64,000 nucleotides of DNA from Cyanobacteriota bacterium (GCA_046045965.1 JBJOKS010000007.1:64001-128000); one strand, 5' to 3'; positions 5,289-51,762 are shown, counted from the first letter of the stretch. The notes: generated by a model not told the origin, from the sequence alone. Program-made: numbers and translations.

Positions 5289-8200
5289 ATGGTATTAGTC
5301 ACTTTACAGGAAATGACTCGGCTGGGGGAGGTAATCATAAACTCTCCCTTAACTGTTTCATCAGATGCAACCGTCACTGAGGCGATATTGCAGATGAGTA
5401 CAGCACGGGCAAGCTGTTCCTTAACAGATGATACAGATGATATTGATGCAGATAGCAATCTGTTTTTAGCAGAAGCTCGTGCCAGTTGCGTTCTAGTGGT
5501 AGATAGAACTAAGGTTTTAGGAATTTTTACTGAAAGGGATGTTATCCATCTCAGAGCCAATGGTTATCAACTGACACAGACAACCATTACTAATGTCATG
5601 ACTCAACCAGTAATCACATTGCGGCAATCGGACTTTACTGATATATTTGCTGCACTCAACCTGTTACAACAACATCACATCCGTCATTTGCCCATAGTTG
5701 ATGACAATGACCAATTGATCGGGCTTGTCACCCATGAAAGCCTACGTCAGATGCTGCGTCCAATTGATTTACTGCGGTTGCGTCTGGTGTCAGAAATAAT
5801 GAATACAGATGTGATTTGTGCAGCACCAGAAACATCAGTATTAGACCTGACCAGGTTAATGGCAGAACATCGGGTTAGTTCAGTGGTAATTGTCGCAGCG
5901 GATGATGATACTCGTGCCATTGGGATAGTCACTGAAAGAGATATTGTTCAATTTCATGCCTTAGATTTGTCATTTGACAAAATTAAAGCCTTAGAGGTGA
6001 TGAGTAGTCCTCTGTTTACCGTCAGTCCTGATGATTCCCTGTGGGAAGCGCGATCGCTCATGCAGGAAAAACAATTAAATCGGGTGGTAGTCACAGACAA
6101 TCACGGACAATTATTGGGTATTGTGACACAAACTACACTGTTGCAAGCCTTGAACCCAGTGGAAATTTACAAGTTAGTAGAAACCCTAGAGCAGAAACTG
6201 TGCCGACTAGAAAAAGAAAAGCTGGAATTGCTGGAAAACCGCAATGCTGAATTAGAGCAGGAGGTAGAGAAACGGACAGCAGAACTGAGAAACCAGGCAG
6301 AAAAGGAAAAATTATTGAGTTCCATCGCTAGTCGCATCAGGTCTTCCTTAGACTTACAGCAGACACTAAATGCCATTGTTAACGAAGTGCGGACATTTTT
6401 GCAGTGCGATCGCGTTTTTATCTATCAGTTTAACCTAGATTGGACTGGTATAATTGTTGCCGAATCAGTAATTGAAAATCATGAATCTTTCCTCAACCAA
6501 GTCATTCACGACCCTTGTTTTGCAGCCAATTGGATAGATCCTTATCTTAATGGAAGAGTTCGGGTAGTAACTGATATTTATCAAGCTAACTTGGCTCCCT
6601 GTCATATTGAACTATTAGAACAAATCAAAACCCGTGCTAAAATCCTTGTCCCCATTGTTCAAGAAAGACAACTTTGGGGGTTATTAAGTGCCACCCAAAA
6701 AGATCATCCACGAGACTGGCAAGAGTTAGAAGTAAATCTCCTCCAACAGCTTGCCACACAAATAGGCATCTCTATCCAGCAAGCCGATATTTACAGACAG
6801 CTGAAAACCGAACTAGCAGAACGCAAACAAGCACAAGCTGATCTCCAGGCTTTGGTGGAAGGTGCAGCCGCAGTCACAGGTAAGGACTTTTTCAGCTTAT
6901 TACTGGAGTACATTACCACCTTCTTGGGCTATCGCTACGGTCTCATCGCCACAAAAAACGGTGAATATTACCAAACTGCGGCATTTTGGGTCAACGGAAA
7001 CATCCAAACTAATATCTCTGGCTTGTTAGAAGGGATGCCTTGTAATTTGACCATAAAACAAGGTAATTTTTGCTGTATCTGCGACCTCCAGCAACATTTC
7101 CCCAACGAAACTTTCAAAGAATTGGCAGCCGAGAGTTACGTGGGTGTAGCGATCAAGTCCACAGAAGGAGAGACTTTAGGTAGCCTTTGTGTATTAGATG
7201 ATAAACCCTTGGTAGATGCTTCTAGAGCGATCGCTATCTTACAAGTATTTGCAGCACGAGTTGGGGCAGAATTAGAGCGTCAGCAGGCAATGACCGCACT
7301 CGAACAACTTAACCAGGAATTAGAACTCAAAGTTGAGGAACGCACAGCCGAACTGCGCCAAAGTCAAGAACGCTGGGAACTGGCACTACGAGGTAGTAAT
7401 GACGGCATTTGGGATTGGAACATCAAAACCAATCAAGTTTTCTATTCCACCCGCTGGAAACAAATGCGAGGATTTGCGGATGATGAAATCGGCTCTCATC
7501 TGCAAGAATGGTCAAATCTGATTCATGGTGATGATTATGACCGGGTAATGATCGCCCTTGCAGATCACCTGGCTCACAAAACTCCCTTCTTCCAAGAAGA
7601 ATATCGAGTACAGCGCAAAGATGGCTCCTATATGTGGGTGCTAGATCGCAGACAAGCTTGGTGGGATGAACAAGGTAATATCCTTCGTATGGTGGGTTCA
7701 GAAAGCGATATTACCAGTCGCAAACAAGCTGAAGCTGAATTACTTGCTATCACCAGTCTGCAACAAGCAATTTTCAATGGTATTGACTATTCCGTGATCT
7801 TCACCAACCCAGAAGGTATCATCCAAACCTTTAATGCCGCTGCGGAAAAGATGTTAGGCTACACCGCAAAAGAGGTAATTGGTAAATTTAGTCCCCTACA
7901 GTTTCATGACCAAGACGAATTGCAACAGCAAGCAGCCACTATCTCAGAAATATGGGGTAGGAATATCACGCCAGGTATGGGAGTTTTTCTCACCACAGCT
8001 ATACAAGGAATTCCTCACGAACAAGAATGGACTTATATTCGTAAAGATGGCTCCCGGTTTCCGGTGTTGCTTTCTGTGACAACTCTCTACGACGATCAAC
8101 AACAAATTATCGGCTTTGTCGGTATTGCTAAAGATATTACCGCTAAAAAACAAGCAGATGAAAAACTGCGCCGGACTATCAAAGAATTATCAGATTTTAA

Positions 8201-11200
8201 ATATGCCTTGGACCAAGCGGCCATTGTGGCTATTACCGACTCTGAGGGTACTATTACCTATGCCAACGAAAAATTTAGCCAGATTTCCCAATATTCTCCC
8301 ACGGAATTAATTGGTCACACCCATAAACTTGTAAATTCTGGCTATCACTCCAGGGAATTCTTTGCTGAACTTTGGTCTACTATTTCTAGCGGTAATGTGT
8401 GGCGGGGTGAAGTTAAAAATCGCAGCAAGGATGGGAGTTACTACTGGGTAGACACTACCATAGTTCCCTTTCTCAATGACCAAGGAAAACCTGTACAGTA
8501 TTTAGCCATCCGCACTGATATCACGGCTCGCAAACAAGCAGAAATTGCTTTGCAAGAAAGCCAGCGTTTTGCTCAAAGTATTGCTGACAGTTCCCCTAAT
8601 ATCCTCTATATCCACGATTTTATCACTCAGCAAAACCTCTACATTAACCGGGAAATAACAACCATCCTGGGTTACACACCAGCGGATCTGCTGCGAATGG
8701 GGTTTGAGGTGTTACAACAAACATTTCATCCAGAGGACTTGATAGCTTACTTTGCACACCAACAGCAATTACAAACCGCAGCTGATGATGAAATTTTAGA
8801 AATTGAGTACCGTGTCCGTAATGTTGATGGTAAATGGCGCTGGCTTTCTGCCCGTGATGCCGTTTTTAAGAGAGATGTCCAAGGGCAGGTGATTCAATAT
8901 ATTGGTGTAGCACAAGATATTACTGAACGCAAAGAAGCGACAGCAGCTTTAGAGAAGTATGCACGGGAAGTTGAGGATCTCTACAATAATGCTCCCTGTG
9001 GTTATTATTCCCTGGACTCTGAAGGAATCATCACTGGGATTAATAATACTCAGTTGCAATGGTTGGGTTACACCCGCGAGGAAATCGTGGGACGAAAATA
9101 CATTGATTTTCTCACCCAAGAAGGTCGTCAAATCTTTAATGAAAACTATCCAAAATTTAAAGAGATCGGCTTTATTAAAGATTTAGAGTATTCTCTGATA
9201 CGTAAAGATGGCACGGTGTTACCAGTCCTCATCAATGCTACTGCTGTCAACAGTGCTGATGGAACTTATCTACATAGTCGCTCCACTGTTTTTGATATTA
9301 CTGACCGTAGAGAAGCTGAGAAAAAACTAAAACACCAATTAACTGTGATCGAGGCCGCTGTGGATGGGATCGCTATCCTGGAAAATAATATCTTTACTTA
9401 TGTCAACCAAGCACATTTGCAACTTTTTGGGTATGAACATTCCGCAGAATTACTCGGTAAAAATTGGCAACAATTATTATATTCTCTAGAAGAAAGCAGC
9501 CGCTTTGAGCAGGAAGTTTTTCCCATCTTAATGCAGCAGCGTCATTGGCAGGGGGAAGCGATCGCCACCCGTAAAGATGGTAGCACTTTCCATGAGGGAT
9601 TATCTTTAACACTGACAGAAGGAGGAACTTTGATTTGTGTTTGCCGAGATATTTCTGATGTTAAAAAAGCGGAACAGGAATTACGAACAATTAATGAAAG
9701 ATTAACTCTTACCAATGCCGAATTAGAACGTGCCACACGCTTGAAAGATGAGTTTTTGGCAAATATGAGTCATGAATTGCGAACGCCGCTAAATGCGATT
9801 TTAGGAATGTCTGAAGGTTTACAGGAAGAGGTATTTGGTTCTATTAACCCAGGACAACGTAAAGCGATCGCTACTATTGAACGCAGCGGTAGACACTTAC
9901 TAGAGTTAATCAACGATATCCTTGACCTGTCTAAGATTGAGTCTGGTAAGCTGGAACTGCAATTGTCATCTGTGCCAGTCAAAAACTTGACTGATACTAG
10001 TTTGCCTTTTGTCCGCCAACAAGCTATTAAGAAAAACATTCGCTTAACTGTTAGCATCCCCGATCATCTGGGTGAAATTGTTGTTGATGAACTTCGCATT
10101 TGTCAGGTATTAATTAACCTACTCAATAATGCCATTAAATTCACCCATGAAGGTGGTAATATCCGATTAGAAATTAAGTTAGAAGGTGCTTACCTGGTTA
10201 TTTCGGTAATTGATACAGGTATTGGTATTGCCTCAGATGATGCCAGTAAACTATTTAAACCCTTTGTGCAAGTAGATAGCAAATTAAGCCGTCAGTATAG
10301 TGGCACTGGTTTAGGACTGGCTCTAGTACGTCGCTTGGTTGAGCTACACGATGGCACAGTTGGGGTGACAAGTGAGCTTGGTAAAGGTAGTTGTTTTACC
10401 GTCAAGCTACCCTATCTTCAGCCTAGCAAGCCGGAAATGACCCATCCTACTGTCTTCCCTCAATGTAGTTTATCACCAGAAAATACAAAGGTATTAATTA
10501 TAGAGGATACGCCTACAGCGGCAGAACAGGTGAAACGCTACTTAGATGAGATAGGTATGGAGGGGGTAGTTTATCCCCAAGGTGAAGGAGCGATCGCGCA
10601 AATTCTCGCACACCAACCAGCATTCATAATTCTCGATATTCAACTTCCTCATCGGTCTGGTTGGGAAGTATTACAACTAATTAAGGCTCATCCAGAAACC
10701 CAAACTATTCCTGTAATTATCTTTTCAGTAGTGGATGAGCGATCGCGCGGTATCGAATTGGGGGCGGCTGAATATTTGATCAAACCTATTATTCGTCAAC
10801 AATTCCATCAGGTGATTAACCAACTGCGCCAACCTTCTATCACTACTACAAATCCAGAAAATATCACTGTTGAGGAGGTATCACCACCAAATAAACAATC
10901 ACCTGTAATTTTGATAGCGGAAGATAACGAGGCTAATATTGATACCATATCGAATTATTTAGAAAGTCGTGGTTATCGTCTACTGGTGGCGCAAAACGGA
11001 CAGGAAGCCATTAAATTAGCTAAAACTCATGCTCCTGATTTGATCTTAATGGATATTCAAATGCCACATATGGACGGTCTAGAAGCTACTCGTTTGATTC
11101 GTGCGGATCAAGATTTAGCTAACATTCCCATTATTGCTTTGACTGGTTTAGCCATGCCTAGCGATCAGGAAAAATGCCTTCAGGCAGGAGCTAATGAATA

Positions 11201-11264
11201 TCTCACCAAACCTGTAAGATTAAAACAACTTACAGAAATAATTCACAATTTATTAAATAAATAA
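5289..11264 (+). CDS. Hybrid sensor histidine kinase: 4xCBS - DXCF cyanobacteriochrome GAF - GAF - about 6 PAS/PAC - HisKA/HATPase - 2 REC
   Basis: GIFTERD/GIVTERD CBS motifs; DPCF...PCH GAF; repeated DIT.RK PAC ends; MSHELRTPLN H-box; DTGIG and GTGLGL; two receivers (ILDIQLP, LMDIQMP). Confidence 0.93.
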   Translation: MVLVTLQEMTRLGEVIINSPLTVSSDATVTEAILQMSTARASCSLTDDTDDIDADSNLFLAEARASCVLVVDRTKVLGIFTERDVIHLRANGYQLTQTTITNVMTQPVITLRQSDFTDIFAALNLLQQHHIRHLPIVDDNDQLIGLVTHESLRQMLRPIDLLRLRLVSEIMNTDVICAAPETSVLDLTRLMAEHRVSSVVIVAADDDTRAIGIVTERDIVQFHALDLSFDKIKALEVMSSPLFTVSPDDSLWEARSLMQEKQLNRVVVTDNHGQLLGIVTQTTLLQALNPVEIYKLVETLEQKLCRLEKEKLELLENRNAELEQEVEKRTAELRNQAEKEKLLSSIASRIRSSLDLQQTLNAIVNEVRTFLQCDRVFIYQFNLDWTGIIVAESVIENHESFLNQVIHDPCFAANWIDPYLNGRVRVVTDIYQANLAPCHIELLEQIKTRAKILVPIVQERQLWGLLSATQKDHPRDWQELEVNLLQQLATQIGISIQQADIYRQLKTELAERKQAQADLQALVEGAAAVTGKDFFSLLLEYITTFLGYRYGLIATKNGEYYQTAAFWVNGNIQTNISGLLEGMPCNLTIKQGNFCCICDLQQHFPNETFKELAAESYVGVAIKSTEGETLGSLCVLDDKPLVDASRAIAILQVFAARVGAELERQQAMTALEQLNQELELKVEERTAELRQSQERWELALRGSNDGIWDWNIKTNQVFYSTRWKQMRGFADDEIGSHLQEWSNLIHGDDYDRVMIALADHLAHKTPFFQEEYRVQRKDGSYMWVLDRRQAWWDEQGNILRMVGSESDITSRKQAEAELLAITSLQQAIFNGIDYSVIFTNPEGIIQTFNAAAEKMLGYTAKEVIGKFSPLQFHDQDELQQQAATISEIWGRNITPGMGVFLTTAIQGIPHEQEWTYIRKDGSRFPVLLSVTTLYDDQQQIIGFVGIAKDITAKKQADEKLRRTIKELSDFKYALDQAAIVAITDSEGTITYANEKFSQISQYSPTELIGHTHKLVNSGYHSREFFAELWSTISSGNVWRGEVKNRSKDGSYYWVDTTIVPFLNDQGKPVQYLAIRTDITARKQAEIALQESQRFAQSIADSSPNILYIHDFITQQNLYINREITTILGYTPADLLRMGFEVLQQTFHPEDLIAYFAHQQQLQTAADDEILEIEYRVRNVDGKWRWLSARDAVFKRDVQGQVIQYIGVAQDITERKEATAALEKYAREVEDLYNNAPCGYYSLDSEGIITGINNTQLQWLGYTREEIVGRKYIDFLTQEGRQIFNENYPKFKEIGFIKDLEYSLIRKDGTVLPVLINATAVNSADGTYLHSRSTVFDITDRREAEKKLKHQLTVIEAAVDGIAILENNIFTYVNQAHLQLFGYEHSAELLGKNWQQLLYSLEESSRFEQEVFPILMQQRHWQGEAIATRKDGSTFHEGLSLTLTEGGTLICVCRDISDVKKAEQELRTINERLTLTNAELERATRLKDEFLANMSHELRTPLNAILGMSEGLQEEVFGSINPGQRKAIATIERSGRHLLELINDILDLSKIESGKLELQLSSVPVKNLTDTSLPFVRQQAIKKNIRLTVSIPDHLGEIVVDELRICQVLINLLNNAIKFTHEGGNIRLEIKLEGAYLVISVIDTGIGIASDDASKLFKPFVQVDSKLSRQYSGTGLGLALVRRLVELHDGTVGVTSELGKGSCFTVKLPYLQPSKPEMTHPTVFPQCSLSPENTKVLIIEDTPTAAEQVKRYLDEIGMEGVVYPQGEGAIAQILAHQPAFIILDIQLPHRSGWEVLQLIKAHPETQTIPVIIFSVVDERSRGIELGAAEYLIKPIIRQQFHQVINQLRQPSITTTNPENITVEEVSPPNKQSPVILIAEDNEANIDTISNYLESRGYRLLVAQNGQEAIKLAKTHAPDLILMDIQMPHMDGLEATRLIRADQDLANIPIIALTGLAMPSDQEKCLQAGANEYLTKPVRLKQLTEIIHNLLNK

Positions 11265-15005: not shown

Positions 15006-16691
15006 ATGAAACCTCGAATTATTGTTTGCGGCTTAGGACGTACCGGATATAAAATATTTCGTCTGCTGAGACAGCAGGGGGCTTGGGTTGTTGGTATTCA
15101 TCGCAAACCCATTGCTGGAGAAACTACAGGAGATGTAATTATTGGGGAATTATGTGCAGCTTCTACCTTGCAAGCAGCAGGAATTGAAAAGGCACATACT
15201 TTAGTAATTGCTGGTTCTGATGATGCCATAAATTTGTCAATTATGATGCAAGCGCGAGTTTTGAATCCCCAAATTCGCATTATCAACCGTTTTTATAATA
15301 CAAATTTAGGTGAACGTCTTGATCACACTCTCATAGATCATTTAAGTATGAGTGTTGTCGGTTTGGCAGCACCAGTATTTACTTTTGCAGCTTTGGGAAA
15401 TCAAGCAATTGGACAAATCAAATTATTTGATCAGACTTGGCCAATTCAGGAAGAATATATCCATGAAGATCATAACTGGAGAGGTAGAAAAATCAGTGAT
15501 TTGTGGGAAGATAAATCAAGAATGCTGATTTATTATTTACCTGTGATTGGCAAGATAAATTTAGTCACAGCAGTGTTAGCAGAACAACGTTTAAAAGTAG
15601 GCGATCGCCTAATTATTGGCACTCAACCCCGCATCAATAATACCCGCAAATCATGGGCAAGAAAATTACTTAAAATTTTCACAAGTATCCGGCAATTTCA
15701 GAAACACGCCAGATCAGTCCTAGCAATGGCTATGGCAGTGATAGTAATTATTTTAATCGCTACATTTACTTATGTTTCTACAAAATTAAATATATCATTT
15801 GTTGATGCCTTATATTTTGCTGTGGGCATGATTACAGGTGCTGGTGGTAATGACAAAGTAGTAGAAAATGCACCCAATAGTATTAAATTATTTACCGTTT
15901 TCATGATGCTGGCAGGAGCAGTAGTCTTTGGTATTTGGTATGCTATGCTTACAGATTTTGTGTTAGGAACTCGTCTCAAACAATTTTGGGATGCTGCCAG
16001 AATTCCCCAACGTAATCATTATATTGTCTGTGGTTTAAGTGGTATTGGCATTAAAATTGTTCAGCAACTTCATACTAGTGGACATGAAGTAGTAGTCATT
16101 GAAACAGATCCTAATAATAGATTTGTGAACACTGCTAGGGGAATGAGTATTCCTGTAATTCTGGCAGATGCGAGTTTTCGCACAACTTTACAAACCAGTA
16201 ATATAGATACCGCGTCCGCAGTTTTAGCTGTTACTAATAACGATGCTATTAATTTAGAAATTGCTCTCAAAGCCAAAAGTTTAACATCAAAAATTCCGGT
16301 AATTGTTCACTATGCTGATCCTGATTTTGCCAGGATAGCACAACAGGTATTTGATTTTGAAGCTGTATTAAGTCCCGCAGAATTAGCTGCACCGGCTTTT
16401 GCTGCTGCTGCTTTGGGAGGGAGAATTATTGGTAATGGAATTATAGGTGATAATTTATGGGTTGCTTTTGCAACTTTGATTACTCCTAATCATCCTTTTT
16501 GTGGTCAATGGGTGAAAGATGTAGCTAGATATGCAGATTTTGTGCCTTTATATGTAGAGACAAATCACCAAACTTTACACGGTTGGGATTTATTGGAAAC
16601 TAATTTAAGTGCGGGTGATATTTTGTATTTAACAATTCCGGCAAATCGGTTATATCAATTATGGCGTGAAGAGCAAGAAATGGTAAGTTAG
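15006..16691 (+). CDS. TrkA-N (RCK)-containing potassium channel family protein
   Basis: Two Rossmann motifs (IIVCGLGRTG, IVCGLSGIG) flanking a 2-TM pore region (DALYFAVGMITGAGG). Confidence 0.88.
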   Translation: MKPRIIVCGLGRTGYKIFRLLRQQGAWVVGIHRKPIAGETTGDVIIGELCAASTLQAAGIEKAHTLVIAGSDDAINLSIMMQARVLNPQIRIINRFYNTNLGERLDHTLIDHLSMSVVGLAAPVFTFAALGNQAIGQIKLFDQTWPIQEEYIHEDHNWRGRKISDLWEDKSRMLIYYLPVIGKINLVTAVLAEQRLKVGDRLIIGTQPRINNTRKSWARKLLKIFTSIRQFQKHARSVLAMAMAVIVIILIATFTYVSTKLNISFVDALYFAVGMITGAGGNDKVVENAPNSIKLFTVFMMLAGAVVFGIWYAMLTDFVLGTRLKQFWDAARIPQRNHYIVCGLSGIGIKIVQQLHTSGHEVVVIETDPNNRFVNTARGMSIPVILADASFRTTLQTSNIDTASAVLAVTNNDAINLEIALKAKSLTSKIPVIVHYADPDFARIAQQVFDFEAVLSPAELAAPAFAAAALGGRIIGNGIIGDNLWVAFATLITPNHPFCGQWVKDVARYADFVPLYVETNHQTLHGWDLLETNLSAGDILYLTIPANRLYQLWREEQEMVS

Positions 16692-16782
16692 ACTGGGTAC
16701 TGGTGACTGGGAAGATTTATAATCTAATTACCAATTACCAATTACCAATTACCCATTACCCATTACCAATTGCATGGTAATA

Positions 16783-17930: not shown

Positions 17931-18650
17931 TTAATCAGAAATGCCAGCATCTCGCAGACGTTTTTCTAATTCTTCAAGGCGTTTTAATGCGGCTTCTTTT
18001 TCTTGTCGTTCTTGTTGCACTAACTCAGAACCCCAAAGCAGCAAATTACCATCTTGATCCCACCAGCGTAACCAGTAACCTTGACGGTTTTCACGCTTTC
18101 CTTGCCATACACCTATAAATAATTGCATTTCCACTAACCAATAATGCTGATTTTCGTTATCTGAGCGTAATTTATATTGTCCTTTATCTAGTTGATGTAC
18201 TTCTAATTCCCCGGTTTCTGGTTGAAAAATGATGTAGTTAGGAACTTGTAAAACTTGTTCATAAAAAAACCATTTTCCTGGGGGATAGGTGCGTTTACTG
18301 GAATATTCATTTCCTTCTGTATCGGAAAGAAATTCCATTACCACTGTAGGAATTTGTCCCTGTTTGTGGGGGGTGTAGCTACGTTGAATTTGCTCTCTAG
18401 GTACGGTAATTTGCGGCACGAAAGCCCAATCAGGTGCTTTGATGACAAATTTGTCATTAAGTGTGGCACAAATGCCGTAATTGGTAGTAGCAAGGGTAGT
18501 TTCTGGTAGTTTACCAGCGAGTTCTAAACTTTCTGTGAGTGCTGCTGCTAGACTGGGTTGGTTGACATTATCCACAGGTTCATTGTCTAAAATGAAGTCT
18601 TCGGGTAGGAGTTCCCAGGTGATCTTGGTAGTCGAAGTAGTAACAACCAT
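17931..18650 (-). CDS. Uma2 family endonuclease-like protein
   Basis: KAPDW...VVMEFLS...K..FYEQVLQVPNY...WLRWWD and C-terminal coiled coil. Confidence 0.9.
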   Translation of the reverse strand: MVVTTSTTKITWELLPEDFILDNEPVDNVNQPSLAAALTESLELAGKLPETTLATTNYGICATLNDKFVIKAPDWAFVPQITVPREQIQRSYTPHKQGQIPTVVMEFLSDTEGNEYSSKRTYPPGKWFFYEQVLQVPNYIIFQPETGELEVHQLDKGQYKLRSDNENQHYWLVEMQLFIGVWQGKRENRQGYWLRWWDQDGNLLLWGSELVQQERQEKEAALKRLEELEKRLRDAGISD

Positions 18651-18713: not shown

Positions 18714-19229
18714 TTAGTTTTGGTTTTCACACTTGCAATTTGGGCTGTTAGGTGCTAAAGCTTTACAGCCTAAAGTCTCTAAATGATTTAAAACTTCCAT
18801 TGTATTTTTCTTTTTACAACGCTTTGCTTCTCTATTTTTTGACATAATATTTTCACATAATTTGCCAGCAACATTTGTGTCAAGAGAAGCATTAAAATGT
18901 AGTTTTTGGGAATGTAAACAATTTCCTTCTATAACTAATTCATAGTTTATTCCAACTTCTTGTAATTCTTCTTCAGTTATCCAGATAAAATCAAAATTCT
19001 GATCTTTTGGATTTCTATTAGCACTTATAGCAACTATTGTGGAATAAAAGTCTTCATTTGATTTAACTAAATAAAGACTATTAACACCATCGTCAAATAT
19101 ATTTACAGCAGCTTTTTGTGCGCGTTCCTGTTGACTATTACAATATTCTGGATGCCAATGTGTGAGCTTATTTATTTTTCTGATATATGCAGGAGTTTGT
19201 ACACCAAAATCTTCAAGAGTTGGAAGCAT
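18714..19229 (-). CDS. Hypothetical protein, candidate ADP-ribosyltransferase-fold toxin
   Basis: YIRKI..W, NSLY, FDFIWI.EEEL..VGI, G..., LHFN pattern; Cys-rich tail; last gene of an AT-rich operon. The function is inference. Confidence 0.5.
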   Translation of the reverse strand: MLPTLEDFGVQTPAYIRKINKLTHWHPEYCNSQQERAQKAAVNIFDDGVNSLYLVKSNEDFYSTIVAISANRNPKDQNFDFIWITEEELQEVGINYELVIEGNCLHSQKLHFNASLDTNVAGKLCENIMSKNREAKRCKKKNTMEVLNHLETLGCKALAPNSPNCKCENQN

Positions 19230-19248
19230 TATTTAAAGTTGTCAACTC

Positions 19249-20028
19249 CTACATATCTTCTATCGCTTCTTTGGCATATTTCTTCACATATTCATCATGC
19301 TCAGAATCTGACAAAAAATATTCTAACTGACTTTTGATAGATTCAACATCTACCTCATCTTCCATTATTAACAAAGCATCTATAATAGCAGTTCTCACTG
19401 AGCGTCTGTTGCTATCTGGAATCAATTTAACGATTGTATTAAATCTCCTTTGAACAGGAATATTAGAGGTACAAGCAATACTTGTAATTAGGATTTCCCA
19501 TTTTTTTTCTAAAACTAATAAATTCTTATTATCTGGGCTAGGTTTTGGTAGATGGTTGAGAGTAGAAATAATTACGTTTCCACACTCTGCTAACAGCATA
19601 ACTGTAGCATCAAAACCTTCACGAATTTTTCTGGAAGTACCCAAATCTAATACTTCCAATACTAATTTAACAGATGTTATCTGTTTAGCAACCTTTTGAG
19701 CTAATGCTTTTCTGTTATTTGGATGAGATTGGAAATAATCTTTGATTAAGATTGAACCAAAAAATTCACCAGCAGAAGAAGTAATTAAGGTTCTATCAAC
19801 ATAATTATTTTGATTTGAAATATTGTAATTTCCTGTTGAGAATAAAAACCGCCCAGTAGCTAAATTAATTGCTTTTCTGGTAGACCGAGGTTTAAATCTA
19901 TTGACTTTTTTTATTCTGGTTTCAGAAAATTTGGAAAATCGCAATTCGTCAATATTATCTTGACCTTTACTTTTCTTAGAAGATTGTAAATTTTCAATTT
20001 GAGAATGACTAGCATATTTAGTAATCAT
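19249..20028 (-). CDS. Hypothetical protein with disordered N-terminus and HEAT-like C-terminus (candidate antitoxin)
   Basis: G-rich RBS; overlaps the upstream gene by 11 nt; 'VRTAIIDAL...DEYVKKYAKEAI' HEAT-like helices. Confidence 0.55.
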   Translation of the reverse strand: MITKYASHSQIENLQSSKKSKGQDNIDELRFSKFSETRIKKVNRFKPRSTRKAINLATGRFLFSTGNYNISNQNNYVDRTLITSSAGEFFGSILIKDYFQSHPNNRKALAQKVAKQITSVKLVLEVLDLGTSRKIREGFDATVMLLAECGNVIISTLNHLPKPSPDNKNLLVLEKKWEILITSIACTSNIPVQRRFNTIVKLIPDSNRRSVRTAIIDALLIMEDEVDVESIKSQLEYFLSDSEHDEYVKKYAKEAIEDM

Positions 20029-20785
20029 AACCCCCCCATAATTTTTGAGCATCTTCTTTTGTTAGTTCCAAAAAAGCTTTTACTATGTAATCATGAGCAG
20101 ATATAAACCAGTCTGTTGTAGGAATAGTATTATCATAACTTTTTGCAATCAGTTCAAAAGATAATAAATTCTCTGAATGTGCTTCTGTATCTTCATCAGT
20201 GGATGTGGATAATTGGTCTATTTTAACAGATAATATTCCAAAATTATTAGGTAATAAGAAATTAATTTGAAAATCTAATGAATCTGGAACATTGAGGAAG
20301 CCACTCCATTCTGTTGTTATAAAATTAAATATTTTGCCATGATCTTTAGCATTTCTCCAACCCATATTTCTATCAATTTCATTTAAATAAGCCAAAGCAT
20401 AATCATTAACTTGTATAGGCTCTAATGAAATACTCAACCACCATTCTTGTAGATGATTCCAATGACTAATAAATTCTTGAAAAATATATTCAAAATTAGG
20501 ATATACATCTTGGTGATCATAAATCCAGTTAAATATAAATAGATTTTCTTGAAGCTGAATTATTTTTCTTCTGTCATTTGATATAAACCCCACTCTACGT
20601 AGAGGTGTTGTAGTATTTTCATGTTCTTCTAAGATAATTGGTTCGCTATCTTGTTGCAATGGAAAGTAGGAACGAATTGATTCCCAATAAAGTCCGAAAT
20701 GAATAGAAGAAAAACCAGGCGCAACAAATTCTACAGAAAAAACAATCTCAATTAGCGGGGGCTGTGTAAAGCTTACTGAAGCCAT
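20018..20785 (-). CDS. TIGR04255-like sporadically distributed protein
   Basis: N-terminal PPLIEIVFSVEF, QLQ...FIFNW..YP.F, LAYLNEI, C-terminal WF..AH..I...FLELT...LW pattern. Confidence 0.75.
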   Translation of the reverse strand: MASVSFTQPPLIEIVFSVEFVAPGFSSIHFGLYWESIRSYFPLQQDSEPIILEEHENTTTPLRRVGFISNDRRKIIQLQENLFIFNWIYDHQDVYPNFEYIFQEFISHWNHLQEWWLSISLEPIQVNDYALAYLNEIDRNMGWRNAKDHGKIFNFITTEWSGFLNVPDSLDFQINFLLPNNFGILSVKIDQLSTSTDEDTEAHSENLLSFELIAKSYDNTIPTTDWFISAHDYIVKAFLELTKEDAQKLWGGYDY

Positions 20786-21076: not shown

Positions 21077-22408
21077 ATGTCTTTTTCTAATCTCGGCTTG
21101 TCCAATGAAATTATTCGCGCAGTCACAGAACTAGGGTACACCAAACCCACACCAATTCAAACACAGGCGATTCCCGCAGTATTAGCGGGTGGTGATTTAC
21201 TAGCGGGCGCTCAAACTGGTACGGGAAAAACCGCGAGTTTCACTTTGCCACTTCTGCATAAGTTGTCATCAAATCAGAACGCTAATAACAATCCTACAGG
21301 ATGGATGCCGATCCGGGCGTTAATTCTCACTCCTACACGGGAACTCGCCGCTCAGATACAGGAAAACGTGCATGATTATGGTAAGTACCTGAAACTGAAA
21401 TCAACGGTGATATTCGGTGGGGTGAGTATAAATCCGCAAAAACGACAGTTGAAAAGTGGTGTAGATATTCTGGTTGCTACTCCTGGAAGACTGCTAGACC
21501 ATCTGGAACAGGGAACGGTGAACCTATCACGGGTTGAGGTTTTGGTGTTGGATGAAGCTGATCGAATGCTGGATATGGGCTTTATTCGTGATATCCGGCG
21601 TATTCTCTCAATTTTGCCTAAGCAGCGTCAAAATTTGTTATTCTTTGCTACCTTTTCTGATAAAATCAAGGAATTAGCCGCAGGTTTGCTGAATCACCCG
21701 ACGATGATTGAGGTAGCACGCCGCAACGTTACCGCTGATACAATAGCACAAAGAGCCTATCAGGTAGACCGTGATAAAAAGCGTCACTTACTTGCTCACT
21801 TAATTAAACAAGATGATTGGTATCAAGTTCTAGTGTTTACTCGGACTAAATACGGTGCTGATCGTCTGGTGAAGCAGTTGAATGATGACCGTATTCAAGC
21901 ACTGGCAATTCACGGGAATAAAAGCCAGGGGGCGCGTACCCACGCTTTAGCAAAGTTTAAGGATGGTAAGTTACAGGTGCTGGTGGCTACGGATATTGCT
22001 GCTAGGGGTCTGGATATCAGTGAATTACCCCATGTTGTCAATTTTGATTTACCCAATGTACCAGAAGATTATGTGCATCGGATTGGTCGTACAGGCCGCG
22101 CTGGTGCAAAAGGTGAAGCGGTATCTTTGGTGTGTGTTGATGAGTTGCATTTGTTGGCAGATATCGAAAAACTGATCAAGCAGCCGTTGTCATTGGAAGT
22201 GGTTGCTGGCTTTGGAATTAACCCCGATATTAAGCCGGAACCAATTCAAAATGGACGCAGACAAAAACCCCAAGCTGGACAGGATCAGGAGACGGCTGGT
22301 TCTACTGCTAAACGGAAAACAGCACCCCGGAGATCGGGTTATAAGGCAGCAAAAAAGTCTGGTGATAGTTCGTCTACATCACACTATGGGAAAAAACGCG
22401 ATCGCTAG
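21077..22408 (+). CDS. crhC: Cold-induced DEAD-box RNA helicase (RhlE-like)
   Basis: [26 protein letters not shown]; motif III is FAT rather than SAT, the hallmark of Anabaena CrhC. Confidence 0.88.
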
Positions 22409-22473
22409 GATAACAGGTGACAGGTGACAGGTGACAGGTGACAGTATTAGATTTAAAAAAATCGCTAGGATAA

Positions 22474-46815: not shown

Positions 46816-46998
46816 GGAATAGGGAATAGGGAATAGGAAATAGGAAAAAGTTGATTATTTTTACCCTACTTCCTGACTCCTGATTCCGGCTATATTTGGT
46901 GAAGTTTTTGTTACATTCAATACTAAAGCTCAGGGAATAGGGAATAATTAAGAAAGAGTTAAGCTCTGAAACTGAGTGGAGTGGGTAAAATAACTGAT

Positions 46999-49900
46999 AT
47001 GACAAATCAATATCCTTCTCAGCAAGCAGCGTCTCAAGGCAACCTGCTCAGTCATATCACTGATCGCATTTCTCAAACCTTAGAACTGCCAGATATTTTA
47101 GCGACAACGGCGGCGGAAATACGTAGTTTTCTAAGTATAGATAGAGTCAAAATTTATCGTTTTGATGCAGATGGTAGTGGTGAAGTAGTAGCCGAGTCCA
47201 TCAATGGCGATCGCTTACCATCATTATTAGGATTACACTTTCCCGCCAGCGACATACCCCCCCAAGCCAGAGAACTATTTATCACAGCCCGTCAACGGAT
47301 TATTGTAGACGTAGCATCAGGAAGAAAAACCACCAGCCGCATCAAGTCACCAGGAACTCTTTCCAGTCATAACCAAGAAGATATTCGCTACACACCGGTA
47401 GACACCTGTCACCTCCAATATCTGAAAACAATGGGTGTTACCGCTTCCCTGGCGATGCCAATTTTGTATCAAAATCAACTGTGGGGATTGATGGTAGCGC
47501 ACCACACCCAACCTAGACCCTTTACAGAACAAGAATTACAGATTGTACAGCTTTTAGTAGACCAGTTATTAATTGCGATCGCTCAATCAAACCTATTTGC
47601 ACAAGCCCGACAACAAGCACTGCAAGAAGCAGCAATTAGCCAAATGAAAAACTGGCTTGGCGCTTCCTTAGACAAAGAAGAGATCCGGCTATCCGTCCTT
47701 AAACACATAGTCACCACCTTGGGAGCGAACGGAGGTAGACTCTACATCACGGCTGATATGGCAGAACGGCCAGCGCAGATATACAGATGGGGAGAACAGC
47801 CAAATTACAACTTAATCGAAGAAAGCAAAGTTTGGCAAAACTTAATGGGATGGCAAGGTGTACTCGCAGTCAGTCACCGTCAACCCTCAGAAGTGATGAG
47901 AACCTGGGAAAAAACCGAGTGTTCCATAACTCAACCTGGTGCAGTTTATTCCTACAGCATTGCCGACTTCTGCCAAGATAAACGACTCAAAGCCCTAGTT
48001 ACTGCCTTTGAACATACTAAAATTAAATCCTTACTGATTATACCCCTGCAATATCAGCAGCAGTATTTGGGTTGCCTGACAGTTTTCCGCCCTGAAATTG
48101 AAACAGAAACCCTGTGGGCAGGGCGTTCTCACCCAGATGACCGGAATTTGCGTCCCCGTGAGTCCTTTGCAGCTTGGCGAGAAATTAAAACCGGACAAGC
48201 ACAACCTTGGACCCAAAGCGAAATCAAATTAGCCCAGTCCTTTGGACTACATTTGTATATTGCCGTCATGCAGCAAAGGGTAGAAAATTTACTGCGTCAT
48301 CATACCTCCTGCGATTTACTCACAGGTTTACCAAATCGGCTATTATTTGACGAACTGCTGGCCTTGTCCTTAGTGAATATTCACCAACGGGGCGGGATGT
48401 TGGCAGTGTTATGTTTAGATTTGGATCGATTCAAAAGAATTAATGATAGCTTAGGTCATGCCGTGGGCGATCGCCTCTTACAAACCGTAGCCGAACGCAT
48501 CAAAAGCTGTCTGCGGCCAGGAGATACAGTAGCCCGTTGGGGAGATGACGAATTTACCTTACTACTACCACAAATTAGCTGTGCAGAAGACGCTACCCAA
48601 ATCGCCCAAAAACTGTTAGATGTTATTGCCCAACCCTTGCAGATAGACAAACAAGAACTGCATATCACTGCTAGTATTGGCATTGCCCTAGCACCCTATG
48701 ACGGCGAAGAAGCCGAAACTCTCCTCAAACACGCAGATACTACCCTCAACCGCGCCAAACAACAGGGAAAAAATAATTACCTCTTGTATACAGCTACCAT
48801 GAATGCCACCTCCTTCGAGCGATTGGTATTGGGAAATAACCTTTACAAAGCCCTGGGCAGACAAGAATTACTTCTGCACTACCAACCACAAATAGACCTG
48901 AAAACCGGTCAAATTACAGGCATGGAAGCCTTACTGCGCTGGCATCATCCAGACATGGGGCTAGTTTCCCCCGCCCAATTTATCCCCCTAGCCGAAGAAA
49001 CCGGATTAATCTGTGATATTGGTGAATGGGTATTACGCACCGCTTGTAAACAAAACCGCCTCTGGCAACTAGCCGGACTCCCACCGCTGCGGGTAGCTGT
49101 GAATCTTTCTGCGCGTCAGTTCCAACAACCCAACTTAGTCAAAACCATTACCAAAATTTTACAGGAAACAGAACTAGAACCCCAATATCTAGAACTGGAA
49201 ATTACAGAAACTTTGTTAATGCAAGACGTAGACTTTACCGTTGCGGCTTTACGGGAACTCCAGGCTTTGGGAATTCACATTTCTATGGATGACTTTGGCA
49301 CGGGTTATTCCTCCCTGAGCTTGTTAATGTATTTTCCGCTGAGTAGTTTGAAAATAGATCAGTCTTTCATCCGCAACTTAAGCAAAAGTTCCAGCAACGC
49401 CGCCATTATTACCTCTGTAATTTCCTTGGGACACGGACTGAATTTAACCTTGGTGGCTGAAGGAGTAGAAACTTTAGAAGAATTAGAATTTCTGCGTCTG
49501 GCTAACTGCGATACTGTCCAAGGTTATCTATTAAGTAAACCCCTAAGTGCGGAAGCTGCGACAAAATTCCTCTTAGAAAAATTCCCCCAAGATAGCAAAC
49601 ATCTCCTCAGTCCCAGCGTTGAATCTCCTCCAGTTAACCCCCTCCCCGCCAATGAACCGCAACGGTTAGCCGCACTGCAAAAATATCAAATTCTGGATAC
49701 AGCTGAAGATGCCACCTTTGATGCTCTCACTCGGTTGTCAGCGCGGTTGTGTCAAACTCCTATTGCTTTTATCAGTTTGATAGATGAAAAAAGACAATGG
49801 TTTAAGTCCAAATTGGGTTTAACTATTACAGAAACTCCCAGGGAAATCGCTTTTTGCGCCCACACCATCTGTCAAAATGAGTTGTTAATAGTTGCCGATG

Positions 49901-51762
49901 CTTTAGCTGATCCGCGATTTGCAACTAATCCCCTAGTAACATCTCATCCCAAATTGCGTTTTTATGCCGGTGCGCCCTTGGTGACAAATGATGGTTGGGT
50001 TTTGGGTACTCTCTGTGTGGCAGATTATATACCCAGGGAATTAAACCCGGAACAGCAAGAAACACTGAAAATTCTCGCGGGTCAGGTGATGACTAAGTTG
50101 GAATTACGCCGTCACCAAATTGAAAAACGCCATTTAAAAAAGCAGTTACATCACGTTCATGAATTGAAAGGGCGGCAGCAAGAACTAGCAAACACAATCA
50201 CTGTATATCAACATAAAGAACAGGAATTGGTTGAGCGTGTCAACTTAGCCCAGTTAGCTTCTCATATTGCTGGTATTCTCGGTCAACATCAAAAGTTATC
50301 TGTGTTGCTGCAAAAGTGTACAGCCATCCTGACGCAACATTTGGATATTGCTTATGCAGGAATCTGGTTACAAAATCCAGTCAGCAAGAAAATGGATTTA
50401 GCCGCTAGTGCGGGATCATCTGTATATTTTTATGCGGCTAATTCCTCCGATCATCTTCCTATCAGTGAGTTTAAGGTCAGTTGGATTGCCCAAAATTCTC
50501 AGTTATTCCAAACTAATCAAATCCTGAATGAAGCAGATTTGAACGATAGAGAATGGGTGCAACGAGAACAGTTACAGGCTTTTGCTGGCTATCCTTTAGT
50601 CCTGGATCATTCTGTAGTCGGGGTGATGACAGTATTTAGCCGTCAACCGCTATCCCAGGGGGCTATAGCTCAATTTGTTGCTATTGCTGATGATGTTGCC
50701 CGTTGTGTAGAACACAAACAAACAGAGGAGTTAGTGAAACTGCAAACTCAACGGGAAAGATTAGTTGCCAGTATTACCCAACGCATTCTTCAGTCTTTGG
50801 ATCTCGACGAGATTATGAAGACGACGGTGAAGGAAGTCAGGCAATTTCTGCACACTGACCGGGTAATTATTTACCGCTTTAAGCCAGACTGGACTGGTGT
50901 GGTAGCAATGGAATCTGTGGGTAATGGCTTTAAGCCAATTCTTCGTAGTTTGATTGATGAACCATGTTTTAGAAATGTTTATGTGCCTCAGTATCGCCAA
51001 GGTAGAGTGAGAGCGATTGATGATATTTATACTGCGGGTATAGGTCAGTGTCACTTAGATTTATTGGCTGAGTTTCAGGTCAGAGCTAATTTGGTAGTAC
51101 CGATCATTCAAGGTGAAGAGTTATGGGGTTTGTTAATTGCCCATCATTGTAGTTGTCCGCGTCATTGGCGACAATTGGAAGTTAGCTTGTTGAGTCAGTT
51201 GGCTACGCAAGTGGCGATCGCAATTAAACAATCTGAATTATATCAACAGGTGCAACGTCAGGCTACAGTCGATGGCTTAACCCAAATTCCCAACCGTCGC
51301 CGCTTTGATGAATACTTCCAGCAAGTTTGGCAACAGATGGAGGCTATACAAGCACCTCTATCAATCATTCTCTGCGATATCGACTTTTTCAAATTTTACA
51401 ATGATACCTATGGACATCCGGCTGGGGATGATTGTTTGCGACAAGTAGCCGCTGCTATTAACAAAGCCGGAAATCGTCCAGGTGATTTAGTGGCTCGTTA
51501 TGGCGGTGAGGAGTTTGTCATTGTGCTGCCAAATACATCTGCATTAGGGGCTGTACAAGTAGCAGAACGCATTCGCGCTGAGGTGAAAGCTTTAGAAATT
51601 TCTCACGAAAAGTCTCTTGTGAGTCAGTATGTGACTCTCAGTTTAGGAGTTGCTAGTCTTATTCCTGCTGCTAATTCATCTCCTGCTGCTTTAATTGCAT
51701 CTGCTGATGATGCTCTTTATCAGGCTAAAGCTCAAGGACGTGATTGTTTACGGTTGGGTTGA
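46999..51762 (+). CDS. Cph2-like photoreceptor: GAF-PHY - GGDEF* - EAL - GAF - GAF - CBCR GAF - GGDEF
   Basis: FPASDIP...CH, PRESF tongue, WGDDEF, EAL and DDFGTG, EPCF...CH GAF, RPGD and GGEEF. Confidence 0.88.
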   Translation: MTNQYPSQQAASQGNLLSHITDRISQTLELPDILATTAAEIRSFLSIDRVKIYRFDADGSGEVVAESINGDRLPSLLGLHFPASDIPPQARELFITARQRIIVDVASGRKTTSRIKSPGTLSSHNQEDIRYTPVDTCHLQYLKTMGVTASLAMPILYQNQLWGLMVAHHTQPRPFTEQELQIVQLLVDQLLIAIAQSNLFAQARQQALQEAAISQMKNWLGASLDKEEIRLSVLKHIVTTLGANGGRLYITADMAERPAQIYRWGEQPNYNLIEESKVWQNLMGWQGVLAVSHRQPSEVMRTWEKTECSITQPGAVYSYSIADFCQDKRLKALVTAFEHTKIKSLLIIPLQYQQQYLGCLTVFRPEIETETLWAGRSHPDDRNLRPRESFAAWREIKTGQAQPWTQSEIKLAQSFGLHLYIAVMQQRVENLLRHHTSCDLLTGLPNRLLFDELLALSLVNIHQRGGMLAVLCLDLDRFKRINDSLGHAVGDRLLQTVAERIKSCLRPGDTVARWGDDEFTLLLPQISCAEDATQIAQKLLDVIAQPLQIDKQELHITASIGIALAPYDGEEAETLLKHADTTLNRAKQQGKNNYLLYTATMNATSFERLVLGNNLYKALGRQELLLHYQPQIDLKTGQITGMEALLRWHHPDMGLVSPAQFIPLAEETGLICDIGEWVLRTACKQNRLWQLAGLPPLRVAVNLSARQFQQPNLVKTITKILQETELEPQYLELEITETLLMQDVDFTVAALRELQALGIHISMDDFGTGYSSLSLLMYFPLSSLKIDQSFIRNLSKSSSNAAIITSVISLGHGLNLTLVAEGVETLEELEFLRLANCDTVQGYLLSKPLSAEAATKFLLEKFPQDSKHLLSPSVESPPVNPLPANEPQRLAALQKYQILDTAEDATFDALTRLSARLCQTPIAFISLIDEKRQWFKSKLGLTITETPREIAFCAHTICQNELLIVADALADPRFATNPLVTSHPKLRFYAGAPLVTNDGWVLGTLCVADYIPRELNPEQQETLKILAGQVMTKLELRRHQIEKRHLKKQLHHVHELKGRQQELANTITVYQHKEQELVERVNLAQLASHIAGILGQHQKLSVLLQKCTAILTQHLDIAYAGIWLQNPVSKKMDLAASAGSSVYFYAANSSDHLPISEFKVSWIAQNSQLFQTNQILNEADLNDREWVQREQLQAFAGYPLVLDHSVVGVMTVFSRQPLSQGAIAQFVAIADDVARCVEHKQTEELVKLQTQRERLVASITQRILQSLDLDEIMKTTVKEVRQFLHTDRVIIYRFKPDWTGVVAMESVGNGFKPILRSLIDEPCFRNVYVPQYRQGRVRAIDDIYTAGIGQCHLDLLAEFQVRANLVVPIIQGEELWGLLIAHHCSCPRHWRQLEVSLLSQLATQVAIAIKQSELYQQVQRQATVDGLTQIPNRRRFDEYFQQVWQQMEAIQAPLSIILCDIDFFKFYNDTYGHPAGDDCLRQVAAAINKAGNRPGDLVARYGGEEFVIVLPNTSALGAVQVAERIRAEVKALEISHEKSLVSQYVTLSLGVASLIPAANSSPAALIASADDALYQAKAQGRDCLRLG

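What the first reader, a model, noticed from the sequence alone, without database searches (positions are those of the whole stretch)
18714..20785. Three-gene AT-rich island resembling a CmdTAC-type ADP-ribosyltransferase toxin-antitoxin-chaperone anti-phage module
Seen: three co-oriented, tightly coupled genes (11-nt overlap, then a 19-nt gap with AGGAG), visibly more AT-rich than crhC next door, with no HIP1 site found. They sit between a Uma2 gene and crhC. Gene 1 is TIGR04255-like. Gene 2 has a low-complexity N-terminus and HEAT-like C-terminal helices. Gene 3 (171 aa) has an N-terminal strand YIRKI, a second strand NSLY, then D.IWI.EE.L...GI, G and LHFN. Known: R-S-type ART folds use an Arg on strand 1 and a Ser on strand 2, and CmdTAC is an E. 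coli defence system with an mRNA ART toxin, an antitoxin and a SecB-like chaperone. Inference, from my recollection of the family pattern: gene 3 is a CmdT-like ART, gene 2 its antitoxin, and the TIGR04255 protein the chaperone or phage sensor. That would assign a function to an uncharacterised family in cyanobacteria. The toxin's Cys-rich tail (C..GC...CKC) may bind metal.
Basis: partly seen in the sequence, partly recalled or inferred. Interest (0 to 1): 0.85.

Follow-up and report, generated by a model that had tools for sequence, protein, structure and literature searches.

The report
Three-gene toxin module with swappable toxins
Three linked genes in a cyanobacterium look like a toxin, its antidote and a shared helper protein, and the same helper gene leads many similar trios carrying different toxins, pointing to a widespread and untested family of probable anti-virus switches rather than a copy of the known CmdTAC system.

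Summary
The three genes are real, AT-rich (30.6% vs 38.1% GC) and travel together: all 12 distinct other loci with a close gene-3 relative keep the order 1-2-3. Gene 3 folds confidently; 45 of 50 listed structural neighbours are ADP-ribosyltransferase (ART)-fold proteins, though best Z is only 4.7. Its conserved triad is R17-S51-H111 plus four cysteines, not CmdT's H-Y-[EDQ]. It is not CmdTAC: no PD-T4-9 match, reversed gene order, variable tail at the antitoxin's N- rather than C-terminus; SecB was not among gene 1's listed matches (inconclusive). The wider result: 48 of 50 TIGR04255 genes examined head an intact three-gene operon whose last gene varies (QGD-motif, R-S-H ART-like, HEPN, PIN, MBL; zeta toxin on a plasmid; also in a P2-like phage), with a Ser/Thr/Asn-rich N-terminal half on the middle gene. 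Best reading: a mirror-image, TAC-like toxin-antitoxin platform, probably anti-phage. TIGR04255 was absent from the main texts searched; DefensePredictor's supplement lists it only as predicted defence. Binding, toxicity, target and defence are untested.

The parts
20018..20785 (-). Gene 1: TIGR04255 family protein, 255 aa; two-lobed curved beta-sheet with helices; shared first gene of many three-gene operons; candidate stabiliser/sensor
   Evidence: NCBIfam TIGR04255 E 2.4e-19; AF2 pLDDT 90; nearest folds guanido-kinase/McsB domain, TBP-like, Med20, Z up to 8.9, rmsd 4.2 over 182 residues; operon survey
19249..20028 (-). Gene 2: 259 aa (267 from ATG 20052); hypervariable S/T/N/K-rich N-terminal ~90 aa plus conserved, acidic C-terminal ~170 aa domain; candidate cognate antitoxin
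   Evidence: Alignment A5 of 13 relatives; identity to window 4-70% in residues 1-90 vs 32-86% in 91-259; no significant family hit; not folded on its own
18714..19229 (-). Gene 3: 171 aa ART-fold protein, R17-S51-H111 triad, C104/C155/C165/C167 probable zinc site; candidate toxin
   Evidence: 130 relatives at E<=0.001; S51, C104, H111, C155 in 116/116, R17 110/116, C165 115/116, C167 111/116; AF2 pLDDT 97; 45 of 50 VIA rows ART-fold, best Z 4.7
17931..18650 (-). Uma2 gene, flanking; not part of the module
   Evidence: PF05685; directly downstream of gene 3 in only 1 of the 7 loci L001-L007; present at the empty site in G041
21077..22408 (+). DEAD-box RNA helicase (crhC/RhlE-type), flanking; not part of the module
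   Evidence: no match in any of the 7 loci L001-L007 (L001 holds only 323 bases upstream of gene 1)

Best explanation
A three-component toxin-antitoxin module that works like a TAC system laid out in mirror image. Gene 3 is an NAD+-using ART-fold toxin (R-S-H active site, zinc-stapled C-terminus; transferase or NADase, substrate unknown). Gene 2's conserved C-terminal domain binds and neutralises it. Gene 2's variable, Ser/Thr/Asn-rich N-terminal tail makes it depend on gene 1, the TIGR04255 protein, whose concave beta-sheet holds or protects that tail. A trigger, most likely a phage protein or infection-driven loss of synthesis, displaces or exhausts gene 1; the antitoxin fails and the toxin stops the cell (abortive infection). 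Shown here: operon, conservation, mobility, fold class of gene 3, interchange of toxins behind TIGR04255, tail composition. Inferred: toxicity (~0.75), antitoxin role (~0.75), anti-phage role (~0.65), chaperone/sensor role of gene 1 (~0.45), mRNA as target (~0.15).
For: Order 1-2-3 in 7 of 7 genome loci and in L009, L010, L011, L012, L047 (L046 repeats L010), plus 5 loci of a distant subfamily (L013, L029, L031, L067, L081; hhalign 96%). Gene-3 family in 6 of 401 phylum genomes, TIGR04255 in 48 of 401: patchy. The slot is empty in G041, holds other cargo in G107, a gene-3 remnant in G160; G402 keeps gene 2's C-domain beside a toxin remnant. 48 of 50 TIGR04255 loci have two coupled downstream ORFs; last gene: 26 QGD-motif, 12 LYR/SV/H-type, 4 gene-3 relatives, 3 HEPN (2 over Pfam cut-off), 1 PIN, 1 MBL, 1 unassigned. 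Middle genes form separate clusters that mostly track the last gene's type and are richer in S+T+N in the first half in 47 of 49 (last genes 30 of 48). All 4 plasmid/phage hits show the same plan, incl. an annotated zeta toxin and a Peduoviridae phage. DefensePredictor Table S4 lists 8 TIGR04255 proteins as predicted novel defence genes, log-odds 4.7-9.3.
Against: No experiment. ART match is weak per pair (best Z 4.7, rmsd 3.4, 102 aligned; Foldseek found nothing at E<=0.001) and strand 5 has His where canonical R-S-E enzymes have Glu. Gene 1's best folds are guanido-kinase and TBP-like, and SecB is not listed. The window's flanks (uma2, crhC, ROK kinase, cpcG, TrkA-type gene) are not a defence island or prophage, and the cassette sits near the same ROK/TrkA genes in several Nostocales, compatible with long residence. 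No gene-3 relative in viral contigs or plasmids; no gene-1 match in phages or plasmids with the window's own protein. Surveyed genomes are kin, so counts are not independent; 26 of the last genes have no family label; A7 was aligned by me from motif likeness and does not match A2 by profile (0.5%). Middle-gene clusters do not track perfectly: one 11-member cluster sits before both QGD and LYR-type genes.
Confidence: 0.55

Rival explanations
1. Genes 2-3 are a toxin-antitoxin pair, but gene 1 is not a tail-binding chaperone: it is a nucleic-acid-binding sensor/regulator (TBP-like saddle) or a modifying enzyme derived from the guanido-kinase/McsB fold that controls the pair.
For: Whole-length structural matches are McsB/arginine/creatine kinases (Z 7.6-8.9, ~180 residues, rmsd ~4), TBP and RepD. 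The wider family conserves R-x-G-L-R-Y-I-N and L/F-D-x-D strands.
Against: Z under 8-9 may be a common arrangement (tool note). Conserved positions over 50 sequences are mainly Pro/aromatic/hydrophobic; the window's protein lacks the family Arg (A132) and no acidic catalytic motif like the kinases' NEED (recalled) is conserved. Does not explain the S/T/N-rich tail on unrelated middle genes.
Confidence: 0.22
2. The same toxin-antitoxin-helper mechanism, but a stress-response or addiction module without a role against phage.
For: Chromosomal, non-island setting; several relatives share the neighbourhood; TIGR04255 trios also occur on plasmids.
Against: Rapid effector swapping, patchy gain and loss, a copy in a P2-like phage, an Avs1a-like MBL effector (below cut-off) and the DefensePredictor scores all lean to defence.
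Confidence: 0.13
3. A true, highly diverged CmdTAC member: mRNA ART, CmdA-like antitoxin, SecB-like chaperone.
For: ART fold; three genes; the C-terminal half of gene 1 has the element order b-a-b-b-b-a-a, which by my recall is SecB's.
Against: R-S-H vs H-Y-[EDQ]; no PD-T4-9 hit although E. coli SecB does hit PD-T4-9_C; hhalign of A2 with a weak CmdT-like protein from the phylum 1.7%; A4 vs E. coli SecB 0.1% (single sequence); reversed order and tail position.
Confidence: 0.04
4. Gene 3 is an ART-fold protein without toxic activity (binding module or NADase of mild effect) and the operon does something else.
For: No catalytic Glu on strand 5; low Z scores.
Against: R, S, H retained at about 17-30% identity; occupies the same slot as PIN, HEPN and zeta toxins.
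Confidence: 0.06

Closest known systems
CmdTAC / PD-T4-9 (PMC11618068, passages read; bioRxiv 10.1101/2024.02.24.581848, abstract, section 5 and passages read)
   Same: Three genes; ART-fold toxin; middle gene with a folded part and a low-complexity part; third partner reused with different toxins in TAC systems.
   Different: CmdT is H-Y-[EDQ] (Y41), gene 3 is R-S-H with four conserved Cys; order toxin-antitoxin-chaperone vs helper-antitoxin-toxin; CmdA has N-terminal helices and an unstructured C-terminus ending Ala-Ala, gene 2 has a variable N-terminus and conserved C-terminus ending Glu-Asp-Met; CmdC model is 135 positions and SecB-like, gene 1 is 255 aa with no SecB match found.
TAC systems in general (HigBAC, MqsRAC, M. 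tuberculosis TAC)
   Same: One conserved third component paired with interchangeable toxin-antitoxin units.
   Different: Defined by a SecB-like chaperone and a C-terminal ChAD; neither shown here. Pfam SecB reached its cut-off in 0 of 401 phylum genomes whereas TIGR04255 did in 48 of 401.
Small bacterial ART-fold toxins: RES (VPA0770, MbcT, ParT, NatT), Tse2, DarT, TreX, RhsP2, Tpt1
   Same: Nearest structures of gene 3 (Z 3-4.7). Tse2 (row 2) has, by my recall only, an R-S-H triad.
   Different: No sequence match to any Pfam family or PDB chain; extra helices and Cys4 tail; not in an Xre-RES, DarTG or T6SS context.
ATP:guanido phosphotransferase / McsB catalytic domain; TBP-like folds
   Same: Best whole-length fold matches of gene 1.
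   Different: 4-12% identity, rmsd about 4 A or more, catalytic motifs not conserved (motifs recalled).

Membership tests
CmdTAC (PD-T4-9) | Toxin has ART fold | tested here: met
   45 of 50 VIA rows ART-fold by title or recalled family, top 23 all; best Z 4.7; Foldseek no hit at E<=0.001
CmdTAC (PD-T4-9) | H-Y-[E,D,Q] catalytic triad (PMC11618068) | tested here: not met
   Conserved R17 (110/116), S51 (116/116), H111 (116/116); no conserved His-Tyr pair
CmdTAC (PD-T4-9) | Sequence homology to PD-T4-9 A/B/C profiles | tested here: not met
   No PADLOC hit for genes 1-3 at E<=1 or PD-T4-9 hit for 116 family members at E<=0.05; own genome has no match to two A models at E<=1 or the B model tried (no control rang); positive control SecB hits C at 1.1e-4
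CmdTAC / TAC | SecB-like chaperone | tested here: inconclusive
CmdTAC / TAC | Gene order toxin, antitoxin, chaperone | tested here: not met
   TIGR04255 first, toxin last, in the window and every intact locus
CmdTAC / TAC | Unstructured C-terminal ChAD on the antitoxin, ClpX-type aliphatic end in CmdA | tested here: not met
   Gene 2's C-terminus is the conserved part and ends EDM; the variable low-complexity part is N-terminal
CmdTAC (PD-T4-9) | ADP-ribosylation of mRNA; phage-triggered abortive infection | not testable with these tools
   Needs bench work
ART superfamily, R-[ST]-E clade | Arg on strand 1, Ser/Thr on strand 2 (PMC13617354) | tested here: met
   R17 in strand 14-19, S51 in strand 48-55 of the model; strand numbering inferred from element order
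ART superfamily, R-[ST]-E clade | Glu on strand 5 | tested here: not met
   Invariant His111 opens strand 111-116; E101 only 40/116
Tse2-like R-S-H ARTs | R-S-H triad and homology to Tse2 | tested here: inconclusive
   Tse2 is VIA row 2 (Z 4.0, rmsd 3.6, 95 aligned); its triad is recalled, not found in papers read; no Pfam or PDB sequence hit
TIGR04255 family | HMM score above cut-off | tested here: met
   70.1 bits vs 30
Guanido kinase / McsB | Conserved catalytic Arg/Glu motifs (recalled) | tested here: not met
   No conserved NEED-like acidic motif; window lacks the family Arg at 132; fold likeness only

The most novel reading that the evidence does not exclude
TIGR04255 is the sensor-chaperone of a second, SecB-independent toxin-antitoxin-chaperone superfamily built in mirror image (helper-antitoxin-toxin, N-terminal addiction tail), which plugs one phage-sensing platform into at least six toxin chemistries across phyla, plasmids and P2-like phages; this locus carries an undescribed zinc-bound R-S-H ADP-ribosyltransferase as its warhead.
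Probability: 0.35. Interest if true: 0.88.

Novelty: new variant of a known kind. Interest (0 to 1): 0.7.

Why it matters
It gives a testable role to TIGR04255, an uncharacterised family found in 48 of 401 phylum genomes sampled and beyond, as the common component of modular toxin operons, and points to several unnamed toxin families (R-S-H ART-like, QGD-motif) that current Pfam, NCBIfam and PADLOC scans miss. If gene 1 is a non-SecB chaperone-sensor, TAC-style phage sensing arose twice, and cyanobacteria, where Pfam SecB was not found in the sample, use this version. The R-S-H/Cys4 ART would also be a new active-site class to assay for its substrate.

Tried and rejected
Complex prediction of all three proteins, gene 1 scored: no answer, score 0.00 twice, no controls run; neither for nor against binding. 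Foldseek of gene 3 against PDB and viral models: nothing at E<=0.001. Sequence/profile searches of PDB with A1, A2, A4, A7: nothing significant. SecB absent from the listed rows for gene 1: recorded as inconclusive; halves could not be refolded. No internal repeat between gene 1's halves by hhalign (0.1%). ESM Atlas: unnamed clusters; nearest named DUF6098 at 0.92 with 163 shared features, a lead only; gene 1 returns TIGR04255 clusters. A2 vs A7 profile 0.5%: the LYR/SV/H family shares the motif pattern but kinship is not shown. HIP1 absence and the AGGAG rejected as evidence. Promoter/terminator counts equal shuffles (15 vs 15.9; 2 vs 1.9); no terminal repeats marking insertion. Contigs from two RNA libraries cover parts of the cassette, but also intergenic DNA, and DNA is not excluded, so expression is not shown. 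Viral contigs with A2 could not be searched; with A1 none. Genomic context and taxonomy of the distant (20-30%) gene-3 relatives were not obtained: cluster look-up unavailable, P0048 had no plasmid match. Literature: 'TIGR04255' 0 papers in main texts; searches found no description of this operon plan; 58, 67, 120 did not yield the Tse2 triad. Passages read: PMC11618068, 10.1101/2024.02.24.581848, 10.64898/2026.10.19.760177, PMC13617354, PMC13092281, PMC13069673, PMC3710099, PMC12872787, PMC4899435, PMC10281587, 10.1101/2022.09.14.507963; supplements searched for PMC13092281 (hits; Table S4 cut when stored) and PMC13069673 (none). Most subscription journals and bioRxiv supplements (e.g. the FlaGs dataset of Mets et al.) were not seen and may bear on novelty.

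Full report
Observation. The three ORFs are as described: gene 1 20018-20785 (255 aa), gene 2 19249-20028 (259 aa; 267 from the upstream ATG), gene 3 18714-19229 (171 aa), all on the minus strand, between a Uma2 gene and a DEAD-box helicase. The island is 30.6% GC against 38.1% for the genome; 1.2% of 2,498 equal bins are as low. HIP1 absence is uninformative, since 37% of such bins lack it, and the AGGAG overlaps the stop of gene 2, 16 nt before gene 3. Each gene is single-copy in the genome. Gene 1 is TIGR04255; genes 2 and 3 have no significant hit in Pfam, NCBIfam or PADLOC.

Gene 3. A search of 1.84 billion representatives gave 130 relatives. In an alignment of the query and 115 near-full-length relatives chosen (fragments, long forms and near-duplicates left out), S51, C104, H111 and C155 are invariant and R17, W25, F45, R72, R133, C165, C167 are in 90% or more. 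AlphaFold gives pLDDT 97. Foldseek found nothing significant, but the exhaustive aligner returned ART-fold chains in 45 of 50 rows, including the top 23 (RES toxins, Tse2, SidE mART, Tpt1, DarT, MbcT, RhsP2; assignment by title or recalled family), best Z 4.7. Each match is weak; their agreement is the evidence. ART catalytic residues lie on strands 1, 2 and 5 (PMC13617354); R17 and S51 sit on the first two strands and His111 opens the strand I infer to be the fifth. So gene 3 is an R-S-H ART-fold protein, outside the three canonical triads, with four cysteines that probably bind zinc (inference). That Tse2 has an R-S-H triad is my recall; the papers read state only NAD-dependent toxicity.

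Not CmdT. CmdT is a diphtheria-type H-Y-[EDQ] enzyme with essential Y41; CmdA has N-terminal helices and an unstructured C-terminus; CmdC is SecB-like (PMC11618068), and TAC operons run toxin, antitoxin, chaperone. PADLOC holds the PD-T4-9 models (E. coli SecB hits C), yet none matches genes 1-3, 116 family members or the genome. The best CmdT-like hit among 301 phylum genomes (E 3.9e-7) has a YHG...GIYFWE pattern and does not align with the gene-3 profile (1.7%).

Gene 2. Across 13 relatives the first ~30-110 residues vary in length and sequence and are rich in S/T/N, usually basic, whereas the last ~170 are conserved and mostly acidic. This is CmdA's layout reversed.

Gene 1. The model (pLDDT 90) is a two-lobed alpha/beta protein. 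Best matches are guanido-kinase/McsB domains over the whole length (Z up to 8.9, rmsd ~4), TBP-like, Med20 and helix-grip folds for the N-half. SecB is not listed, and the profile does not align with E. coli SecB, but the halves could not be tested alone, and the C-half's element order fits SecB by my recall: inconclusive. Conserved positions over 50 diverse members are mostly structural; kinase motifs (recalled) are not kept.

Linkage and mobility. All 7 genome loci and L009-L012 and L047 keep order 1-2-3: 12 of 12 distinct loci with a close relative (L046 repeats L010; L012's gene 3 is split over two contigs). A distant subfamily (hhalign 96%) is also third behind a TIGR04255 gene in 5 loci. 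The family occurs in 6 of 401 phylum genomes. At the same slot, G041 is empty, G107 holds other cargo, G160 only a 3' remnant of gene 3; G402 has gene 2's C-domain intact beside a gene-3 remnant, one case of the toxin-lost-first pattern. Against pure mobility, several Nostocales carry it near the same ROK and TrkA-type genes, and the window shows no defence island here.

The wider pattern. TIGR04255 passes its cut-off in 48 of 401 genomes (57 matches). I examined 50 matches (30, 20); five more are the gene-3 loci above or the window, one is the second piece of a broken gene, and one (G052:C140) is among the 30. In 48 of 50, two co-oriented ORFs follow at once; the exceptions are an operon split by a transposase-like gene (L060) and a broken gene (L068). 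Third genes: 26 with QG[DE]..[ST]Q.CD motifs (no family hit), 12 that I grouped by an R..S..H pattern, 4 gene-3 relatives, 3 HEPN, 1 PIN/VapC, 1 MBL hydrolase (Avs1a-like, below cut-off), 1 unassigned. Middle genes fall into unrelated clusters that mostly follow the third gene's type, some with Xre-like HTH hints, and are S+T+N-richer in their first half in 47 of 49 (third genes 30 of 48; ORF starts were mechanical and kin are not independent). Outside this sample all 4 hits keep the plan: a Peduoviridae phage (R-S-H type), a Thermus plasmid (HEPN-like), a plasmid with an annotated zeta toxin, a Crinalium plasmid (gene-3 relative). An earlier AI note (e1-6629034) reported a TIGR04255 trio ending in an MBL hydrolase; L062 is such a case.

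Mechanism. The simplest account is a toxin-antitoxin pair whose antitoxin carries an N-terminal low-complexity tail tying it to a shared helper, as ChAD ties TAC antitoxins to SecB, in mirror image; a phage cue would release the toxin. Operon, fold class, swapping and tail composition are shown; toxicity, binding, trigger and target are inferred. The complex prediction gave no answer and is not used. Main rival: gene 1 is a nucleic-acid-binding or enzymatic regulator.

Novelty. 'TIGR04255' is in 0 main texts of the library and six further searches showed no description of this operon plan; the library lacks most subscription journals and bioRxiv supplements were not seen. DefensePredictor's supplement lists 8 TIGR04255 proteins as predicted novel defence genes with no homology or Foldseek hit (table cut when stored), so a defence role has been predicted but not explained. 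Verdict: not a CmdTAC member; a new variant of the three-component toxin-antitoxin kind, possibly an independent superfamily. Interest 0.7.

Noticed in passing
L016-L028, L030, L032, L034-L037, L039, L042, L044, L054, L058, L059, L070 (third genes): The commonest effector behind TIGR04255 (26 of 49 third genes) is a family with QG[DE] and [ST]Q.CD motifs; members scanned had no meaningful Pfam, NCBIfam or PADLOC hit. Fold not tested.
   Followed up: partly
L078:194-2061: Complete TIGR04255-middle-R/S/H operon, lower GC than its flanks, near the end of an unannotated Peduoviridae (P2-like) phage record.
   Followed up: partly
L071:928-2796 (G107): In a same-genus genome the slot between a truncated uma2 and crhC holds a 447-aa ORF of no known family and a short ORF resembling a HolA fragment (recalled likeness) instead of the cassette.
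   Followed up: partly
L075:2116-2806 (G402): Gene 2's C-terminal domain survives as an intact 191-aa ORF next to a 24-codon remnant of gene 3; no gene 1 match nearby.
   Followed up: partly
window 16691-16772 and 22410-22445: Short intergenic repeats: the first has many dispersed copies in this and related genomes; the second draws very high depth and loose ends from other places.
   Followed up: no
L055:2055-2717: Third gene of a TIGR04255 operon with His and Cys motifs suggestive of a permuted papain-like fold (recalled pattern); no family hit.
   Followed up: no
L060:3476-4582: A transposase-like ORF on the opposite strand separates the middle gene from a QGD-family-like third gene.
   Followed up: no
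L048:1444-2094 (G076): Weak CmdT-like (PD-T4-9_A, E 3.9e-7) gene at a contig end in an incomplete genome; the only plausible CmdT relative among 301 phylum genomes.
   Followed up: partly
window 5289-11264 and 46981-51762: Two very long ORFs (1991 and 1593 aa) elsewhere in the window, not examined.
   Followed up: no
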